The notes under the pieces are model-generated. The model ran no database searches, was not told the DNA's origin, and saw nothing but the letters and a program-made list of their open reading frames with translations. Source: the human T2T-CHM13v2.0 reference genome, Homo sapiens. From it: a stretch of 64,000 bases of DNA. The position numbers were made by a program, and so were the translations under genes. Each line of letters begins with the position of its first letter. Positions within the stretch are counted from its first letter, which is position 1. This document shows, in pieces, positions 2,641 to 49,859 of this stretch. The stretch lies in NCBI RefSeq assembly GCF_009914755.1, contig NC_060936.1; one strand, given 5' to 3'.

Positions 2641-3629
2641 AAGAGTACACTCTAAAATAATAATAAAAGTATTGTAAACACATAAACCAGTAACAGTCAT
2701 TTATGATCATTATCAAGTATTGTGTACTGTATGTAACTCTCCAAGCTATACTCTTATACACTGGCAACTCAGGTTTGCTTATACCAGGACCACCACAAAC
2801 ATGTGAGTCATGCGTTGTGCTACCATGTTATGATAGTTACTATGCCACTAGGTCACAGAAATTGCTCAGCTCTGTTATAATCTATGGAACCACCTTCCTA
2901 TATGCAGTCTGTTGTTGGCTGAAATATCGTTATGCAGCCCGTGACTGTGCATTGGCATTTGTCCACTTGGTCTTCAGCCTAGCTTTGTACTTTGTCTTTG
3001 ACATTTTGGCTTCCACTGCAATTTACTTCAGGCTTGGACTCCTTGAGGATCTCTCCAAACCTGCCATGGTCTGTTTCTTGCCACCAGTCCCTAGCTGCAC
3101 ATTCTTAGGGCAGCTGCCCCAGCTTAGTCTGATTTATGGGGCCCCTTATCTCGTAACTTTTAGAATCTTGACCAAGTCAGGCTACCCGGCAGGAGGAAAT
3201 GTCAAAGGCAGAGGCAAAAGTGGCCCTCTCACTTTATCTGTATCTCCAGGGTCTTCCTTTGCATGGTCTCCTTTCCTTCCACCCTCAAGTCCATTCCTCT
3301 CCTGTTTCTCTCCGCCCCTCCAGGTTTCCTCCTTTAACCGCATCACCTAGAGTCATCTTCACCGTGCAAAGTGGTTTTGTTCAAACTAATGTATTAACAC
3401 TCAACTCAGTGCAGTTGCCCTTTGAATGATCACACCCAGGAGACTTTTTTCTAATTAGTGTTCACCTTGACTGTACTATATTTCAGTGTTGATCATTTTG
3501 TCCTTTGGCTCAGATAGCTGTAAACTGCCTTCTATTTCACTGATTCATCATTCTCTCATCTTCCTTTCCCATCTTCAAATGTGGATATTTCCTAAAGGTC
3601 ATTCTCTGTTCCTCATTTTTTTTCAAAAA

Positions 3630-5670
<2,041 letters not shown>

Positions 5671-6884: not shown

Positions 6885-7639
6885 AGGCAGTCAGACTTTA
6901 TTAGAACATGCACTTAAAATTAGCAAGAAGGAATGAGAACAACAACAACAAAATTAAAAAATGCTTGCCAAAGAAAACTAAAACAATGTGCAATATTTAG
7001 CCCTGAGATCACTAGCAGTGAAGGCAAAGAAGAATGCATAATGGGTTTCTACAGCTCTCACTGTCCGGTTATAGAAAATATTTCTACATTAGTACAAGCA
7101 CTTTTCTTCCTAAGCCCTGAGTTTTGAGAGTTTATCAAGAAGGCCTCTGAGTTCATTCAATTAATGGCATCATCTAAGGCTGTTTAATAACAAATGCAGA
7201 GGTAGTCCACATAAGGAACTTTTGCCTTTACCTTTGAGACAAAGCCCAGGGCCTCACGTTAGGAGTACAGCTCTCTAAATATAAGCCTCCAGGGCAGAAG
7301 CGAGGGGAGGATGGAGGGACACAATGCAGATTTACAGCCTGGTGGGTACGGCCTTTGTCCTCTCCATGTCTATTGTCACTCTTGAGGTCCAAGCCTCTAC
7401 TGCACTGCCTGGTTTACTGCACAACCCAACTTGGCTGCTTGCTTCTGGTCTCTCCCCACCAAACCATCCTTCACACTGCTTCCAGCTTAATATTTCCAAG
7501 ACACTGCATTTGCAAATCCACTCCTCTGTTTAAAAATGTTTCAGTGACTTGCAACTTGTCTACAGTGTGAAGTATAAATTTATTAGCTTGTTGTTTAAAG
7601 CCTTCTACAACCAGACCCCGACCGACCTTCACGTCCTAT

Positions 7640-9156
7640 TGAGAGGTGACAGCCTGCTGGCAGCCCTCGCAGCCCTGGCTCGCTCTTGGCGCCTCCTCGG
7701 CCTTGGCACCCACTCTGGCCGCGCTTGAGGAGCCCCTCAGCCCGCAGCTGCACTGTAGGAGCCCCTTTCTGGGCTGGCCAAGGCCGGAGCCAGCTCCCTC
7801 AGCTTGCAGGGAGGTGTGGAGGGAGAGGCGCAGGCGGGAACCGGGGCTGCGCTCGGCGCTTGCGGGCCAGCGCGAGTTCCCGGTGGGCGTGGGCTCGGCG
7901 GGCCCCGCAATCGGAGCAGCCGGCCCGCCAGCCCCGGGCAGTGAGGGGTTTAGTACCTGGGCCAGCAGCTGCCGTGCTCCATTTCTCGCCGGGCCTTAGC
8001 TGCCTCCCCGCGGGGCAGGGCTCGGGACCTGCAGCCCACCATGACTGAGCAGCCCGCCATGACTGAGCCGCCTGCCGGCGCCCCAGCCATGGGCTCCTAC
8101 GCGGCCGGAGCCTCCCCGACGAGCGCCGCCCCCTAATCCGCGGTGCCCAGTCCCATCAACCCCCAAAGGGCTGAGGAGTGCCGGTGCACAGCGCGGGATT
8201 GGCAGGCAGCTCCACCTGCTGCCCGCTGCCGCATCCACTTGGTGAAGCCAGCTGAGTTCCTAAGTCTAGTGGGGACTTGGAGAACCTTTATGTCTAGCTA
8301 AGGGATTGTAAATACACCAATGGGCACTCTGTATCTAGCTCAAGGTTTGCAAACACACCAATCAGCACCCTGTGTCTAGCTCAGGGTTTGTGAATGAACC
8401 AATCGGCACTGTGTATCTAGTTAATCTGGTGGGGACTTGGAGAACCTTTGTCTAGCTAAGGGATTGTGAATGCACCAATCGGCACTCTGTATCTAGCTCA
8501 AAGTTTGTAAATGCACCAATCAGCACTCTGTGTCTAGCTCACGGTTTGTAAATACACCAATCGACACTGTGTATCTCGCTAATCTAGTGGTGACCTGGAG
8601 AACTTTTGTGTCTAGCTCAGGGATTATAAACGCACCAATCAGCACCCTGTCAAAACGGCTCAATCAGCTCTCTGTAAAACAGACCAATCAGCTCTCTCTA
8701 AAATGGACCAATCAGCAGGATGTGGGTGGGGCCAGAGAAGAGAATAAACACAGGCTGCCCTAAGACAGCAGCAGTAACTCACTAGGATTTTCTTACCACA
8801 GTATGGAAGCTTTGTTCTTTTTGTTTTTTAGGTCTGCACTGCCTTTATGAGCTGTAACACTCACTGCAAATGTCTGCAGCTTCACTCCTGAAGCTAGTGA
8901 GATACACGAACCCACCGGGGTGAACTAGCAACTCCAGTACATGCCGTCTTAAAAGCTGTAACACTCAGGCGAAGGTCTGCAGCTTCACTCCTGAGCCAGC
9001 AAGACCACAAACCCACCAGAAGGAAAAAACTCCAAACCCATCGGAACATCTGAGGGAACAAACTCCAGACACACCGCCTTTAAAAACTAACACCGCGAGG
9101 GTCTGCAGCTTCAGTCTTGCGTTAGTGAGACCAAGAACCCATCAATTCTGGACACA
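7640..9156 (+). mobile_element. Full-length solo LTR12 (ERV9, LTR12C-like)
   Basis: Starts TGAGAGGTGACAGC and ends TCTGGACACA; 4-bp TSD CTAT; tandem CCAAT-containing U3 repeats at ~8300-8715. Confidence 0.93.
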
Positions 9157-9899
9157 CTATCAACTTTGTTTCTCCAAGGGTGCTTCTTAAACTGGATGAT
9201 GCACACCCTAGGAGTGTGTGTGTAGGATGGGGTTTGAAGCAGTAGGGTAAAAAACCTAGCATACATTCTATTCCAGAGGTGTCAATTTACCAGACAACAG
9301 TTATTTTAAAACTTTTTTATGCAAAAACATGTTATAGGGTGGAATGCAACATTTTTATGGGCCTGTGGGCCATTTGTATACATCTTTGGAGAAATGGCTA
9401 TTTAAGTACTCTGCCCATTAATTCTAAACTTAAAACTAAGACTTCAAAGTCCCTCTAAGGATTTTGCTGGGCCACATCCCAAGACCCTGAAGGGTATTAC
9501 TTACTCGCCCTCTCCAAACTGCCGAAGTCGGAAGCAGGTGACAAAAAAGCTGACCCTGGAATCACCTTTTGTAAATTTCCCACCTCCAAGCTTTTCGATA
9601 GTTTGTAACACTGGCTCCTCTCCCCAAAAGCCTTTCCTTCAAGTCCCAGCAACTCTCCCTGACCCTGCTGGGAAGGCGCACCAATTACCTGTCATTCCAG
9701 GAAAGCTCATAGCATAAGATGATCCCATTGGTCATCTCCCAGAACCAGACTTTCTGAAAAGTCCTCAAGGACCAGCTAGTCCAATCCCTCACTGAATAAA
9801 GGAGAAGCAAAGTCTAGGGAGGTGAGGTGATTCGTTGTCCTCCTAATTAGCAGGTGAGCTCCTGGCAGGGCTGGGGTTTCATCTTCTGGGCTCTCTGCA

Positions 9900-14812: not shown

Positions 14813-40300
<25,488 letters not shown>

Positions 40301-40330
<30 letters not shown>

Positions 40331-41290
40331 TGGGCAACCACACCACTGCCTGGCGCCGTGCCCTTCCTTTGTCCTGCCCGCTGGAGACAGTGTTTGTCGT
40401 GGGCGTGGTCTGCGGGGATCCTGTTACAAAGGTGAAACCCAGGAGGAGAGTGTGGAGTCCAGAGTGCTGCCAGGACCCAGGCACAGGCGTTAGCTCCCGT
40501 AGGAGAAAATGGGGGAATCCTGAATGAACAGTGGGTCCTGGCTGTCCTTGGGGCGTTCCAGGGCAGCTCCCCTCCTGGAATAGAATCTTTCTTTCCATCC
40601 TGCATGGCTGAGAGCCAGGCTTCCTTCCTGGTCTCCGCAGGAGGCTGTGGCAGCTGTGGCATCCACTGTGGCATCTCCGTCCTGCCCACCTTCTTAAGAG
40701 GCGAGATGGAGCAGGCCCATCTGCCTCTGCCCTTTCTAGCCAAGGTTATAGCTGCCCTGGACTGCTCACTCTCTGGTCTCAATTTAAAATGATCCATGGC
40801 CACAGGGCTCCTGCCCAGGGGCTTGTCACCTTCCCCTCCTCCTTCCTGAGTCACTCCTTCAGTAGAAGGCCCTGCTCCCTATCCTGTCCCACAGCCCTGC
40901 CTGGATTTGTATCCTTGGCTTCGTGCCAGTTCCTCCAAGTCTATGGCACCTCCCTCCCTCTCAACCACTTGAGCAAACTCCAAGACACCTTCTACCCCAA
41001 CACCAGCAATTATGCCAAGGGCCGTTAGGCTCTCAACATGACTATAGAGACCCCGTGTCATCACGGAGACCTTTGTTCCTGTGGGAAAATATCCCTCCCA
41101 CCTGCAACAGCTGCCCCTGCTGACTGCGCCTGTCTTCTCCCTCTGACCCCAGAGAAAGGGGCTGTGGTCAGCTGGGATCTTCTGCCACCATCAGGGACAA
41201 ACGGGGGCAGGAGGAAAGTCACTGATGCCCAGATGTTTGCATCCTGCACAGCTATAGGTCCTTAAATAAAAGTGTGCTGTTGGTTTCTGC
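40301..41290 (+). CDS. DDX11: DDX11 exon 27: FHREKSASS* (stop 40328-40330) plus 3' UTR; alternative-frame stop at 40527
   Basis: gcccag|TTTCAC acceptor; AATAAA at 41265-41270. The 3' end is approximate. Confidence 0.88.
41265..41270 (+). terminator. DDX11 polyadenylation signal
   Basis: AATAAA followed by a GT/T-rich downstream element. Confidence 0.8.
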
Positions 41291-41297
41291 TGAGTTT

Positions 41298-43320
41298 TTT
41301 ATTGATATGTGCTGCTGTTTTCTCTGGAAGCCTCTTTAGGGAATCGAGGAGCGCACTGGTGCAGGGGCTGGGTGGAGCCATCCTCCGATGGAGCACAGGC
41401 AGACGGAAGCCCCCACCCCAGCTGCGTGGCCTCAAGCCAGCCTCCCGCTCCCCGAAGGTGGTCTCCACACAGACCTGGGACAGTTTCATCCCCGCCCCTT
41501 CCAGGGCAGCAGGGCTGAGGATCCCATTCTGGCTGTGTCCACGTCCGGGCCATGGCTAGAGTCTGGGTTTAGGGGAGGAAGGCATGGCGGCGCCCGCTAG
41601 GATTTCCAGTTGTCCTCTTCTTCCTCTGCCTGTGGCTGCTGGGGGTTAGCAGAGACGGTTTGTTGTCTGACATACGGGCTCTCTCCTCCCGGCCCCTCAC
41701 CAGCCCCAGAGGTGAAAAGGCTGGAGGGGAAAGGGTGAGTGAGGGAGGTCTGTGGGGAGCACTGGTTTCCCCAGGCCCCAGAGACTTAAACACAGGAAGA
41801 AAAAGGCAAGAGAGAATTAACGATGCCACAGCCCATGGCAGACAGCGGCCCTGCCTCCTACCCTTGCGTCTCAGGACCAGCTTGTTGAAGAGATCCCACA
41901 TCAGTTCCCTGCCTTGGCTTACGGCTCTCACTGCAATAGGAAAGCCACGGAGTGGGGTGTGGGGTTCAGTCACATTTGACCCCCGGCTCCGTGTTCCTGT
42001 CCCCTGTAGTGTTTTTGTTATTAGACCCTTTTTTCTCCTTGGTTTAGGAATGGGGGCCCCAGGGCCACCCTTGTCCAGGCTCCCTCTACCGTAGAGGTGA
42101 GAATTCCAGGGAGCTACAATTTGAAAACCACTATTTTATGAGCCAAGTAGAACAAGAAATGACAACTATTAAAAAAAATAAGGGATTTCTGACCAGCTAA
42201 CAACCCCACAGAAAATCCGCCAGGGATCCAGAAATGAGACTGAGGTGGCCTCAGAGAGCTCCCTCCTGAAGGGGATGCTGCTGCTGTCGTCCTGCCCGGC
42301 GCCTTGGACTGCAGTGGCCGGGGCCTGGGGTGGGGATGAGGGTGCACTGACCAGCACCGCAGCAGCTGGGGGAGGTTGGGGTGCTGTTAACGTGCCATCT
42401 TATAGGTAGGAAGTGGAAATGGGAGAAAGTGTGGGGTGCCTAGGGAAGGAGGTGACTGAGCAGGGAGCCTGGCTGCCATCCTAACACCCAGCTCACTGGG
42501 CTTGAGCGACTTGAGCCTGGTGCCAGGGCAGAGTGGGTGATGCTGGGGCCCAGGCTGGCACCATACTTGAGGTCTGCCAGGCAGGTCAGGTAGGATGGCA
42601 CATCGACCTTGGGGGACTTGGCCCAGGTCTGGCATGTAGAAGTAGTTCTCTGGGACCCATGGGATTAGGTGGGGACATGTGAGAGGTGACAGGGACCTGC
42701 AGGAGCAGCTAGCGAGACCTCATGTGCACCCTGCACAGCTGTGGTGGCATAAGGGATTCAATAGAGCCTCTCCTAGAGAGGAGCCTGGCAGGGCCCCCAG
42801 CCCTTGCACCTGCCCCTCCCTCTCCACCTTCTGCTCCAGCTGCTCTCTCACTGATGGACAAGGGGCACTGAACAGTTTATCTGTCTCTACCCCCAGCATC
42901 ACATGGGTCTTTGTTACAGCACCAGCCAGTCCGTCTGGGAAGACAGACTTCTTGTATCTACAGGGGCGACGTGGAGGTCAGGCAAGCCGGCACCTGCTGT
43001 CCTGGGACCATGTTCCTGACCTACCTCTCCCATGTCATCAGGGACACTGCACTGAGGGGTCCCAGGCCACTGAGCCAAGCCACCCTGGTCACCTTCTGGC
43101 TCCCACCTCTGTGCTGCACCTGAGTGTGATGCCCTAGGACCCCATTAAGTCAGGCTGAGTCTTGCACCCACACCCTGCGACTCCATTTTCTGCTACACAG
43201 GATCTCTCTGATGTTGACGAGCAGCATGGAGACCTGGGGAGACCCCCCAAGCGCCTCCTCCATGTCATCCTTGGGCTCCAGCTTGGCGCTCACACACACA
43301 GGAAAGGACTTCAGCTTCTC
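41298..43320 (-). pseudogene. Unprocessed WASH/WASHC1 pseudogene remnant (3' exons), convergent with DDX11
   Basis: Six exon remnants on the - strand: 43199-43320 EKLKSFPVCVSAKLEPKDDMEEALGG; 42828-42957 [29 protein letters not shown]; ~42497-42656 VPENYFYMPDLGQVP; ~42266-42407 Pro-rich L*DGTLTAPQPPPAAAVLVSAP...QDDSSS; 41862-41930 RAVSQGRELMWDLFNKLVLRRK; 41597-41720 ...PQQPQAEEEEDNWKS*. Minus-strand AATAAA at 41298-41303. Contains stops and frameshifts. Confidence 0.85.
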
Positions 43321-43380
43321 CTGGGAGGGCTGGGTGGCTGAGGGGTGGTGGATTTCGGAGTTGGACTAGCAGCTGGCCTA

Positions 43381-43857
<477 letters not shown>

Positions 43858-44723
43858 TTATGCAGGCAGCTGATCCAGTGCTGTGTAACCTTGGGGGCCA
43901 CCAGATGCCAATCAATCAGTAGAATGGGAGAGAAGGATGGAGGAAGTGAGGACAAGGGGCAAGGAGGAAGGTCTGTCCACCTGTCTCTTCTGTGCAGGAG
44001 GTGTCCAAGCAGGAGGAGCACGTCACATCCCCACTGAAAAAGCCCACAGAAAATGAAAAGCCCACATGCTTGTCCATTGCTGCAGGATGGGGGCAAGTGG
44101 AGGGGGAGAGGTGTCGGCGCTCCCACCTTACTCCCAGTCATGGCTGACTCCTCCCTTTCCTTCGTTCTTGTTCCTAATCTGTCACCATGTCCTGTCGTTT
44201 TCTTTGTCTCACCCAACCCTCTCTGCCTGAAAATCCCCTGACGGCAGCCTCATCCCTGTCACCTCCTGACTGTAGTTGGTGACAGAAGAGGAGGCTGCAC
44301 TAGTGAAGGAGCAGGGACTCCAGGTCTGGCAACAACCAGGGATGGGGCCGGGTGGGGGTGACTTGGACCAGGAGAGGGGCCTGAGTCAGGCAGTCACATA
44401 CTTCATGCTGGGGTCCCCCAAGTGAAGCACATTTAGCAAGATCTGAAATACAGGGAAACAGTCTTGTTTCTTCAATAAATAAATTGCAAAGGAGAAACAA
44501 TTGATGAAAGGAGAAACCTATAGATCCAGAAATACTAACAGGCAAATCAAACAATCATAAGGAGAGACTTTATTTGGATTTTGATTCAAACAAACTAACA
44601 AAAAAATGAAATTACTGGAAATTTGGAGACAGTAGGGTAGTTGGTAGTATTAAAGAATAGTAGTGTGCGATGGTTGGTATGATAATGGTATTGCAATTTT
44701 GCTTTTTTTTTAAAAGAGTTCTT

Positions 44724-46075: not shown

Positions 46076-46924
46076 CAGGTAGTCTCATTCTGGTTTCAGC
46101 TCTGGAAGGGGTGAAGAACAAGTCCCCAGAGCCCATCCTGTCCCTCGTGGATGACATACTGAGGGCTCAGGAAGACTCTCCCTCACAGCCTGCCCCAGTT
46201 TCCAGGCTGAGCCACCTGAGCAGCTGCTTCAGAAAGCCTCTTGTGCCATAGCCATGCTTAGGAAAAAGCATATCTTCCATTCAATTCACCAAGAAACACC
46301 AAGAAATAACTGGATACAAAGAATAAAAAATACTCTGCCACACTGGCAGGGCAGGAGGGTGAAAATTGTGCCCCCTCCAAAGGTAATGTCTATAAAAGGA
46401 TAACTAAGGCCAGCGCCAAAGTCCACCTACAGAAGGCGGGTCTGTCTCAACCCCAGCTGTCAGTCACTGTGAACTTTTAGAACTGGGGCTGAAGCTTCTT
46501 CCAGTTGCTTGCTCAGATGTCAGTGAGACCGCTCCACAACAGATAAGGGGAGCTGTGTGTCAGGGAAGTCCCAGCCACTAGCACAAGCTGCACTCCAGGC
46601 AGACGTTTCTGTTCTTGTGCAAAGAACAGCGCAATCCATTCAAGTTCACAGGGGCGGGTGGCACTTGAAAATGTCAGGGTCAACTTGCAGGGCAGAAGTT
46701 AGCAGGGAAGTAAGTCTTCCTGGGGGAGTGGGAGAGCCCAGCAGAGTTTAGGAGGAGGGAGGGGCAACATCGGGGCAATCCTCTGAGTCTCTCTTTCCTC
46801 CTCAGGAACTGTCCAGGAAGACCCTGCAGTCTCTCTGCAGGCTCATGGGAGCTCCCAGAACTGAGACAACACACAGATCCAGGCCTGCTTCGAAGTCAGT
46901 GGGATGCGGCCCTTGAAAGTCGAT

Positions 46925-47180
46925 GTATTGGGTTCCTAGGGCTCTTGTGAAAACATGCCACACCTGGCTGGTTTTAAACAACAGGAGTTTATTCTGTCAG
47001 TTGAGAAGGCTAGAAGTGCAAAATCAAGGTATTGACGGGATGAGTTCCAACTAGAGGCTGTGAGGCAGATCAACTCCATGGCTCTCTCCTGGCTTCTGCT
47101 GGTTTCTGGCAACCATTCACTTCCCATGCCTGGTAGACACATCACTCTAACCTCTGCCTCCCTTTTTCACGGGCACATTC

Positions 47181-47224
<44 letters not shown>

Positions 47225-47370
47225 ATGTGTGTGTTAAGGACAGCAATCATTAGACTAGGTGGGGCCCACTCTAATCCACTGTGAGCTTCTCTTACTTTGG
47301 TAACATATGCAAAGACCCAATTTCCAAACAAGGTCACATTCCATGTTCTGGGACTGTCTTCTGTGAGATG
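46925..47370. mobile_element. MLT1 LTR with internal (TG)n at 47183-47233
   Basis: tgtattgggttcctagggc...ggttttaaacaacaggagtttattc...aaagacccaatttccaaacaaggtcacattc. Confidence 0.6.
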
Positions 47371-49859
47371 TCTCCCCCAGGATCCTTCCAGGTGGAAGGA
47401 TGCCCTTTGACCTGCAAAGCCAGGCAGAAAACCAGGATCAGGGCAGGACAAGAGGATGCTAGCCTGTGATGGCTCCCACTCAGGTGGGATGTGAGAAGTG
47501 CCTGTGGCCTGGGACACACCAACTTGCTCCCAATACCTCATCTGAGATGGATTGCACAGTGTATGTCCAGGGCCCATCCCGGCACACTGTGCCTTTGCAA
47601 TGCTGTCTCTGCGCTTTGGAAATTGACTCAGCCCACTGCGTGGGGTGGTCTGAGGCGGGCCACAACCATTTCTTAACCATCCCTGAGTACCTGACCAGTA
47701 TCCCCCGGGGGTGACAACTGGCTACATCTGGAGCATGAGGAGCGTGTTTACCTGGTGAGTAAGGATGCAAGCATAGGACGTCCTGGCCGATCCTCTGCAC
47801 AAGCAATGCCTTTGCTCCAACGGGATGGGCAACGTTGGATTAGGCCTGAGGCAGATTTGATCTTGGAAGATACATTCAAGTCTACGTGTTTTGTGCGTTT
47901 ATTTTCGTTTCCTTGAATTAACATGGAGTCCATTTCAACTTTCACTTAGTCTCCTTCTTTCTCTTCCCCCACTTCTCTCTCTCTCTTTCTTTGTATATGG
48001 AAGAATTTAACTCTGTGTTCCATAATGTCTAAATACTCAAATTTAGAGTTGACAGCCATACAGCAAATTATTCAAGTTGCTGTCAAAAAAAAATCCCTGC
48101 GTTTTCTAGGATTAAAACTGTGAATAGAGTACTGGAAGAAAAAAAAGTCATAGACTCAGATGCAAAATGACAACATTTAATGGGATGATAAGGAAATAAG
48201 ACTTGTCAAGAAACCATAGCCCACTGCAGACTGTTCACGATGTCAGATGGTTCATGATTTTTTTCCAGGTTTGATACAGAAGAATCAGTTTGTTAAAAGA
48301 AATGCTTCTCCACCTGGGATTTAAAACATCATTTAAACAATAAACACATTTGTATGTATATATAAATAGATATTTAGAAATAAAAACATGCATATATAGG
48401 CACATAGACATGTATATACATATACACACATATGTACAAATATATATGCCTAAATTTTTACTGACCTGTCAACTTACAAAACAAAAATGAGAGATTTATA
48501 AAAGGTACATATATAGCTGTGAATTCTTTAAAGCTATTTTTAAAGAAATTAATATAATCTTAATGATTATCAGATTACTCATGCAGTACACAGCTACACA
48601 AGTCTAATGAAGTACCAGAGACTTTTCTTTCTTCAACTATTGTCCTATCTTATTCAGGTTTTCATTTTCTTACTAGATGTGTTTTCAATGGTTTATGACG
48701 TAATAAAATTTCTTTACTTCTTCCAGTAATTGCTTTGTCTCACTCGGAAACTGAACTACTGTTGATGTGGTAAAAAGCTAGGGCATATTCTTCTGAAAAA
48801 ATAAAGGGAACATGTATTTTTATTAAATAGATGATATAAGCACATTAGATCTAATCCTTCCAATAATTTTGAAATAGAGACAATTACTTTCCCATTTTAT
48901 ACATTATGCAGAAATATGCTAATAATATTTAAGACACTTGATGAAATATATTCTATTAGTAAATGATAGAGACAGAATTCAAACACTCCACAAACTTCAC
49001 ACAGCATTCAACAAGAAATAAATAGTACCAACCTTCCAGGGAACAGTTGTATGGTCTCTACAACATTTTAGTATATGTTTTAGAAATTAATCTATCAAAT
49101 TTTTAAGTTAACATTTCAGAATATTCCCCACTCCTCTTTTTAAGTCAAAGTCCACAGAAGTAGCTTGGAACAGTCAGTCTTAGCATGAACAACAATGACA
49201 ATAACAAAAAGACCTGGAAGCTTAGTGTGGCTTGTATTTCAAGTTCAAGTGGAGCCCTGTCAGGTTATATTGCAAGGATTCTGGTGTTGAAAAACTCTGG
49301 TAACTGGAAAATGGGTTCAGTCAGAAGACACATCATGGGATAAAGAAACCAGAACACAAAGTAATGCCATTTATTGTTTACTCTGTGAAGACAGAGGTTG
49401 ATTTTGGAAAGTTTAGTAGCTCAGGGAATGTTAGATATAAACACCACATTCAATAACCTTAGGGCATGGCTGTTGCTTGCCTACCTTTTTCGTACTAATC
49501 GTAGACCATGCCTGGGGCTGGCTGAATGTTGAACACAAGGTTGCTCTGCTCAGCAGAAAAAGTGAAACTGTCTGCTCGACCAAAAACCTATCATGACACA
49601 AATTATAATTACATTGTAGCAGGTCTGAGAAAAGATAATCACTGAGAAAATTATCCGCAGAAGTTTATGATCTACATAATTAAATAGATCTAGGGTATGA
49701 TTAACTTACATATTGGCAAAATAATGAGTTGTTAACCTTAAATCATATAAAATTTCAAGTTCCTTTGCTTACATTGAGGTGAGAGGAATTTAGCTGGAAG
49801 TCTCAGAGGAATGTAGGCATTTATGTGAGTGGTAACAATACACATAGAAAGGATGTCTC

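What the first reader, a model, noticed from the sequence alone, without database searches (positions are those of the whole stretch)
41298..43320. Fossil WASH gene tail-to-tail with DDX11, suggesting reciprocal subfunctionalisation with the subtelomeric DDX11L-WASH blocks
Seen: six - strand exon remnants keep WASHC1 peptide similarity, several intact AG/GT sites and compatible phases, including the C region (LMWDLFNKLVLRRK) and the acidic tail with tryptophan (EEEEDNWKS*). Known: human subtelomeres carry decayed DDX11L next to WASH copies in this same convergent layout. Inference: the ancestral DDX11-WASH pair was duplicated; this copy kept DDX11 and lost WASH, while the subtelomeric copies kept WASH and lost the DDX11 5' end. 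This remnant may be unannotated.
Basis: partly seen in the sequence, partly recalled or inferred. Interest (0 to 1): 0.72.

Follow-up and report, generated by a model that had tools for sequence, protein, structure and literature searches.

The report
Dead WASH gene copy behind DDX11
Just behind the human DDX11 helicase gene lies a broken copy of the actin-regulator gene WASH1, missing from the RefSeq gene table and about 80% identical to the working copy; it likely dates from a doubling of the two-gene pair in the monkey-ape ancestor, after which each copy likely kept a different gene, so it is an ordinary dead gene but a useful dated record.

Summary
Six minus-strand exon remnants (WASH1 coding exons 5-8, 10, 11), the 3' UTR and pieces of intron 2 run from 41298 to about 44431. 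With the DDX11 3' end they align collinearly to the subtelomeric DDX11L-WASH blocks at 73-88%. The remnant is dead: 8 of 11 splice sites survive, but it has frameshifts, a stop, and exons 2-4 and 9 are missing.

Non-coding divergence is 0.15 and dN/dS is 0.55 (WASH) and 0.66 (DDX11), which fits early reciprocal death. A recent back-copy from a subtelomere is excluded. Diagnostic residues and Alu calibration favour a stem-simian duplication, although the WASH tree test does not reject other placements.

This is reciprocal gene loss, not subfunctionalisation. The ancient adjacency and block duplication are already published (PMC10924726). This window is probably a young, clipped, 97% copy of the 12p13.31 locus.

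Not found in the papers I read: the remnant itself, a date younger than the published one, further WASH fossils on 12p, and one WASH intron split and swapped around a 214-kb block. Moderate interest.

The parts
41298..41596 (-). Former WASH1 3' UTR; its poly(A) hexamer AATAAA (41303-41298) faces the DDX11 hexamer (41265-41270, + strand) about 30 bp away
   Evidence: about 81% identity to chr20p at 41260-41330, no higher than background
41597..41720 (-). Remnant of last coding exon (exon 11, acidic tail with Trp, stop TAG); acceptor intact; net -10 nt
41862..41930 (-). Remnant of exon 10 (C region of the VCA module; region label recalled); both splice sites intact, no indels
42004..42014 (.). 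Junction of a 1.2-kb deletion that removed exon 9 (the WH2 exon; label recalled)
   Evidence: window 42004/42014 joins chr20 75947/77171; exon 9 at chr20 76629-76781
42266..42407 (-). Remnant of exon 8 (proline-rich); both splice sites lost, TAA stop, net -26 nt
42497..42656 (-). Remnant of exon 7; acceptor lost, six indels
42828..42957 (-). Remnant of exon 6; both splice sites intact, three deletions
43199..43320 (-). Remnant of exon 5; both splice sites intact, three indels
43375..43377 (.). Junction of a 4.4-kb deletion that removed exons 3 and 4
   Evidence: chr20 78645/83064; all 12 copies of the exon 3-4 region found are 97-100% subtelomeric-type
43377..44431 (-).
43534..43851 (-). Alu (Y/Sc-like by recalled diagnostic positions) inserted after the split; empty site in chr20p, present in both 12p13.31 copies
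44431..44720 (.). Junction that clips the remnant; DNA to the right is 100% identical over 292 bp to chr12:9,365,524-9,365,815
36608..41293 (+). DDX11 3' part whose counterpart is the subtelomeric DDX11L stub (36608-37296 and 38973-41293, 80-83% identity)

Best explanation
This is a dead, intron-retaining copy of WASH1 that lies tail-to-tail with DDX11 and aligns collinearly with the subtelomeric DDX11L-WASH blocks at about 80%; it likely arose when the whole ancestral DDX11-WASH1 pair was duplicated on the stem-simian branch, after which each copy likely lost the opposite gene. Step 1 (published): DDX11 and WASH1 are ancient convergent neighbours. Step 2 (inferred): a DNA-level duplication copied both genes to another place on 12p, roughly 45-60 Mya (ages recalled). 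Step 3 (decay shown, early timing inferred): the moved copy kept DDX11 while WASH decayed by point changes, frameshifts and exon-removing deletions; the parent copy beside IQSEC3 kept WASH1 and was cut in DDX11 at the point matching window 36608 (by an inversion, as published), leaving the DDX11L stub. Step 4 (identity shown, direction inferred and published as a hypothesis): in apes the DDX11-plus-remnant block was copied again, giving two copies at 12p13.31 and this clipped one at 12p11.21. The remnant likely has no function today; only its old 3' end doubles as the DNA just downstream of the DDX11 poly(A) site.
For: Collinear block from DDX11 across the intergenic stretch into WASH. K2P against chr20p: DDX11 introns 0.17, DDX11 3' UTR 0.15, WASH introns 0.15-0.22. 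Pooled non-coding non-CpG 0.151 (95% CI 0.132-0.174, n=4141), against 0.137 between 13 AluS-like and 0.277 between 7 AluJ-like copies (classes recalled). dN/dS 0.55 (CI 0.37-0.83, 235 codons) and 0.66 (CI 0.42-1.25, 151 codons), as expected when one side is neutral. The remnant shares simian residues absent in sifaka (148A, 155D, 292L, 433A, 459A) but keeps non-simian states (329Q, 334A, weakly 318A) and 294P. First-coding-exon fossils elsewhere on 12p show the same mix (30V simian, 33V ancestral). The best of six placements is stem simian. DDX11L shares simian residues, and a placement outside Euarchontoglires is rejected (p-AU 0.017). Synteny is published; mouse Ddx11 and Washc1 are listed in one chr17 QTL interval, order not given. 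The 12p13.31 copies are longer and 96-97% identical (hypothesis).
Against: The WASH placement test rejects none of six positions by AU (p 0.08-0.88), and the DDX11L test cannot separate four positions from 'sister to human' to 'below simians'. Diagnostic sites were picked by eye; 205V and 444M do not fit cleanly. No tarsier and only one partial strepsirrhine WASH model was available, and no strepsirrhine DDX11 was among the 120 listed. Fossil branches look longer than the live one in intron 2, which blurs the clock. No non-human DNA could be read, so synteny rests on print. No old 5' half of DDX11 was found (one search was swamped by Alu hits).
Confidence: 0.78

Rival explanations
1. The duplication is the older Euarchontoglires event proposed in PMC10924726; the two copies were kept alike by gene conversion until the simian stem, so my date is the end of conversion, not the duplication.
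For: Published suggestion. WASH AU test does not reject this placement (p 0.21). Mosaic identities among the 12p fossils show that exchange occurs here: 76-88% in some stretches and 94-95% in another.
Against: It needs tens of millions of years of complete conversion over more than 10 kb. DDX11L outside Euarchontoglires is rejected. Divergence lies far below the AluJ-like level.
Confidence: 0.12
2. The remnant is a recent back-copy of a human or ape subtelomeric DDX11L-WASH block onto the DDX11 3' end.
For: Same layout as the subtelomeric blocks; a tree with the remnant as sister to human WASH1 is not formally rejected (p-AU 0.19).
Against: Subtelomeric copies are 97-99% alike but only 73-88% like the remnant. 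The remnant keeps ancestral residues where human WASH1 is derived (294P, 324P) and intron DNA missing from the chr9, chr12 and chr2 copies. An old Alu sits inside it.
Confidence: 0.02
3. The remnant is kept by selection, as a DDX11 3'-end or termination element, an antisense RNA or a short peptide.
For: The WASH poly(A) hexamer is intact and forms the T-rich stretch just past the DDX11 end; the 700 bp nearest DDX11 has no large deletion; exon 10 has no indel.
Against: Identity at the poly(A) overlap is about 81%, the background level. Frameshifts, a stop, lost splice sites, no start exon and no promoter in the window. No transcript in the supplied table.
Confidence: 0.05
4. DDX11L arose in an ape ancestor when a rearranged piece of DDX11 moved next to an unrelated WASH gene (Costa 2009), and the WASH-like DNA here is incidental.
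For: Published model (PMC2705379).
Against: The WASH remnant continues the DDX11-DDX11L alignment without a break. DDX11 and DDX11L coding parts differ at 11% of sites, not the 'up to 98.5%' identity reported. DDX11L keeps ancestral 806P and 858I. Zebrafish has the same adjacency.
Confidence: 0.01

Closest known systems
Subtelomeric WASH1 family (LOC124908094 on 20p13, WASHC1, WASH2P-WASH9P) with DDX11L stubs; PMC10924726, PMC2151093, PMC2705379
   Same: Same exon-intron layout, same convergent DDX11 neighbour, same facing poly(A) signals.
   Different: Those copies are 97-99% alike, terminal or at the chr2 fusion site, and pair WASH with a dead DDX11 stub. This one is interstitial, about 20% diverged, lacks four coding exons and pairs dead WASH with live DDX11. 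It is not among the 13 WASH1 genes tabulated in PMC10924726.
Unprocessed (duplicated) pseudogene left by reciprocal gene loss in a duplicated block (class known from general knowledge)
   Same: Introns kept, DNA-level duplication with flanks, neutral decay, opposite gene kept in each copy.
   Different: Nothing of principle. Both genes are scorable in both copies, and the block was then re-copied several times.
DDX11/DDX12P/DDX12B-OVOS segmental duplication on 12p (PMC12874980, PMC7452896)
   Same: The window is one of its three copies, 96-98% identical.
   Different: The passages read do not mention WASH; the remnant rides in all three copies.
Duplications through circular DNA intermediates (PMC7450558)
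   Same: Two halves of one WASH intron bound a 214-kb block in the same orientation and swapped order.
   Different: No 90%-plus donor for the halves was found; the passages read name no chr12 case (its supplementary tables were not read).

Membership tests
WASH1 gene family (by descent) | WAHD domain sequence (PF11945) | tested here: met
   3 of 4 exon translations hit, E 1e-4 to 9e-3, below cut-off; tBLASTn E 1e-13
WASH1 gene family (by descent) | Shared exon-intron structure and intron homology | tested here: met
   six exons and introns collinear
WASH1 gene family (by descent) | C-terminal VCA module | tested here: inconclusive
   C and acidic exons present, exon 9 deleted
Functional WASH1 gene | Open frame, start exon, usable splice sites | tested here: not met
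   frameshifts, TAA, 3 of 11 splice sites lost, exons 2-4 and 9 absent
Recent subtelomeric DDX11L-WASH duplicon | At least 97% identity to the other copies, terminal position | tested here: not met
Unprocessed pseudogene | Introns and flanks retained, disabled frame | tested here: met
Unprocessed pseudogene | Neutral evolution on its own branch | tested here: inconclusive
   pairwise dN/dS 0.55 fits one neutral side; long protein branch, 0.32 substitutions per site against about 0.02 for the live tip (trees printed); no DNA outgroup to polarise
Unprocessed pseudogene | No protein product or functional transcript | not testable with these tools
   no expression data; no row in the supplied RefSeq table
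Subfunctionalisation (duplication-degeneration-complementation) | Both copies of one gene survive with divided functions | tested here: not met
   one copy of each gene is dead
Circular-intermediate duplication | Swapped block order, same orientation, clean breakpoint | tested here: met
   chr12:31,100,614 ends at chr20 88874 and chr12:30,886,910 starts at chr20 88877
Circular-intermediate duplication | Identified donor and internal closing junction | tested here: inconclusive
   no close twin of the halves found; block interior not read

The most novel reading that the evidence does not exclude
A stem-simian burst of DDX11-WASH1 duplications seeded an overlooked family of dead WASH copies along 12p (9.30, 9.39, 11.37, 30.89, 30.98 and 31.10 Mb) that mark the breakpoints through which the essential helicase DDX11 was relocated more than once. 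The 214-kb block that now holds the only working DDX11 begins and ends with the two halves of one WASH intron in swapped order, the footprint of insertion as a DNA circle opened inside a dead WASH gene.
Probability: 0.3. Interest if true: 0.6.

Novelty: new member of a known kind. Interest (0 to 1): 0.4.

Why it matters
It supplies the missing mirror half of the published DDX11-WASH1 story. It gives a sequence-based date that disagrees with both printed accounts (ape origin in 2009, Euarchontoglires in 2024). It is a natural outgroup for the WASH1 family, agreeing with the chr20p copy's ancestral intron state. It points to further WASH fossils and a permuted block around a disease gene (Warsaw breakage syndrome) whose paralogues already hamper diagnosis. 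It does not suggest a new function.

Tried and rejected
(1) The owl monkey's divergent second WASH protein (P0088/P0089) as orthologue of the remnant: rejected, it carries simian and New World derived states that the remnant lacks. (2) An old 5' half of DDX11 near FKBP4: none found with window 20250-23000 or 23000-29900; one search returned only Alu hits. (3) Conserved reading phase: 3 of 5 exons with indels are net in-frame, about what chance gives, and all shift internally. (4) Extra conservation at the poly(A) overlap: none. (5) The Pfam genome scan missed the window's own exons, so it undercounts fossils. (6) One search used the wrong DDX11 frame and was not used; repeated in frame. (7) The bacterial promoter scan is irrelevant to this genome. 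(8) PMC13122177 passages were irrelevant. (9) Weak 60-66% matches of window 3620-5585 to subtelomeric DNA were taken as old repeats and not followed.

Full report
Observation. A DNA search of the genome with 41300-43500 gave 30 scored matches: the window, two 96-97% copies at chr12:9.30 and 9.40 Mb, 72-84% matches in subtelomeric DDX11L-WASH blocks and the chr2 fusion site, and one 82% match at chr12:31.09 Mb. I mapped the ten coding exons of the chr20p copy, which PMC10924726 identifies as the working gene, and obtained a 469-codon frame with one terminal stop. Exons 5, 6, 7, 8, 10 and 11 have remnants in the window; 8 of 11 splice sites survive. tBLASTn scores reach 65 bits against at most 28.9 in 200 shuffles. 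Five of six exons carry indels and exon 8 has a TAA. Deletions removed exon 9 and exons 3-4. Intron 2 pieces continue to about 44431, where the remnant is cut by DNA identical over 292 bp to chr12:9,365,524-9,365,815. The 12p13.31 copies run on through intron 2 and intron 1; in the 9.30-Mb copy a deletion of about 0.3 kb removed the start exon.

One block, one age. Homology to the subtelomeres starts at 36608, inside a DDX11 intron, and runs without a break from 38973 through the facing poly(A) signals into WASH. K2P distances to chr20p are 0.12 for DDX11 coding, 0.15-0.17 for DDX11 non-coding, 0.18 for WASH coding and 0.15-0.22 for WASH non-coding sites. dN/dS is 0.55 for WASH and 0.66 for DDX11, the value expected if one member of each pair has been neutral for most of the time; the DDX11 interval includes 1. 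This supports reciprocal loss. It is not subfunctionalisation, since no gene's functions were divided.

Date. Pooled non-coding non-CpG distance is 0.151 (CI 0.132-0.174), near the spread among 13 AluS-like copies (0.137) and well under 7 AluJ-like copies (0.277). I grouped 25 of 31 Alus, dropping six near-duplicates from paralogous subtelomeres; subfamily calls and ages are recalled, and within-group distances include subfamily differences. A Y/Sc-like Alu entered the remnant after the split. I aligned 21 of the 120 WASH proteins listed, chosen for named mammals. The remnant shares five simian residues absent in sifaka, keeps non-simian states at 329 and 334 (318 weaker), and keeps ancestral 294 and 324; sites 205 and 444 conflict or are ambiguous. 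A placement test on 18 rows and 235 columns (second owl-monkey copies, mouse and wallaby left out; poorly predicted stretches masked) ranks stem simian first but rejects none of six positions by AU. For DDX11L, with 20 of the 120 proteins listed and no strepsirrhine among them, a position outside Euarchontoglires is rejected (p-AU 0.017) and four younger positions tie; codon 896 (TGG) is most simply derived from the non-simian arginine codon. The first-coding-exon fossils at 31.10 and 11.37 Mb share many derived changes, including a TGA, and show the same simian and ancestral mix. Together these favour the simian stem; I put that date at about 0.7.

Which copy moved. PMC10924726 (passages, parts 2-3 of 6, supplement searched) reports the FKBP4-DDX11-WASHC1-IQSEC3 order across tetrapods, the same convergent pair in zebrafish, a block duplication in the Euarchontoglires ancestor, and a primate inversion ending inside DDX11. 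So the 12pter WASH sits in the ancestral neighbourhood and the DDX11-bearing copy moved. PMC12874980 (passages) proposes that DDX11-OVOS2 at 12p11.21 is an African-ape duplicate of the 12p13.31 locus; the clipped, mosaic state of the window fits. DNA right of the remnant also has 72-83% matches at chr12:2.69-2.77 Mb, where I recall FKBP4 and the inversion edge to lie. PMC2705379 (parts 1-3 of 5) proposed an ape origin of DDX11L by movement of a DDX11 piece next to WASH; the remnant contradicts this.

Beyond the window. Further old WASH fragments (72-88% identity to chr20p) lie at chr12:11.37, 30.887-30.892 and 31.094-31.101 Mb. The last overlaps the pseudogene LOC107987168 named in the supplied table, whose description I could not see. 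The 31.10-Mb piece ends at chr20 position 88874 and the 30.887-Mb piece begins at 88877, in the same orientation and swapped order, 214 kb apart with the window between them. That is the pattern PMC7450558 (passages) attributes to circular intermediates. Against a simple reading, the 31.10-Mb piece is only 72-87% like the 9.30-Mb copy (94% in one stretch), no target-site duplication was seen, and DDX11 may have arrived inside the block later.

Print. Eight searches and the passages read in PMC2151093 (plus 12 supplements searched, no hits), the 2023 preprint (its supplements not seen), PMC7452896, PMC2323237, PMC9879139 and PMC12926204 showed no mention of a WASH remnant beside DDX11. A 2002 Genome Research paper I wanted was not held; other early subtelomere papers and GENCODE were not seen and may note it.

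Verdict. A real WASH pseudogene with no RefSeq row, of a known kind. The core scenario is published; the remnant, the younger date and the wider fossil set are modest additions. Interest 0.4.

Noticed in passing
G000:C12:30,886,910 and G000:C12:31,100,614 (L051, L052; outside the window): One WASH intron 1 sequence is split within 2 bases, and its halves bound a 214-kb block containing the window, in the same orientation and swapped order.
   Followed up: partly
L048 (C12:31,093,900-31,099,900) and L049 (C12:11,368,700-11,369,900): Two fossil WASH first coding exons, 88.5% alike, share a TGA and other changes; the first overlaps RefSeq LOC107987168.
   Followed up: partly
G000:C12:30,886,910-30,892,131: WASH intron 1 and upstream DNA (75-87% identity) overlaps the annotated 3' end of TSPAN11, starting about 45 bp after an AATAAA; the direction of copying is not known.
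   Followed up: partly
window 43377-43971: Intron DNA shared only with the chr20p and chr3 WASH copies among those found; the chr9, chr12 and chr2 copies lack it, which suggests a derived deletion.
   Followed up: partly
window 46100-49400: Low-copy sequence with matches at chr12:2.69-2.77, 9.33-9.45, 30.19, 30.70 and 30.93 Mb, suggesting a 12p-specific duplicon family.
   Followed up: no
window 7635-9160: A 1.5-kb dispersed repeat with many 78-85% copies genome-wide, mostly unmasked in the supplied file; family not identified.
   Followed up: no
proteins P0088, P0089: Owl monkey has a second, degenerate WASH copy of separate, New World origin.
   Followed up: partly
window 24905-25286: About 380 bp of DDX11 intron is absent from both 12p13.31 copies, probably the DDX11-specific intronic region used in PMC7452896.
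   Followed up: no
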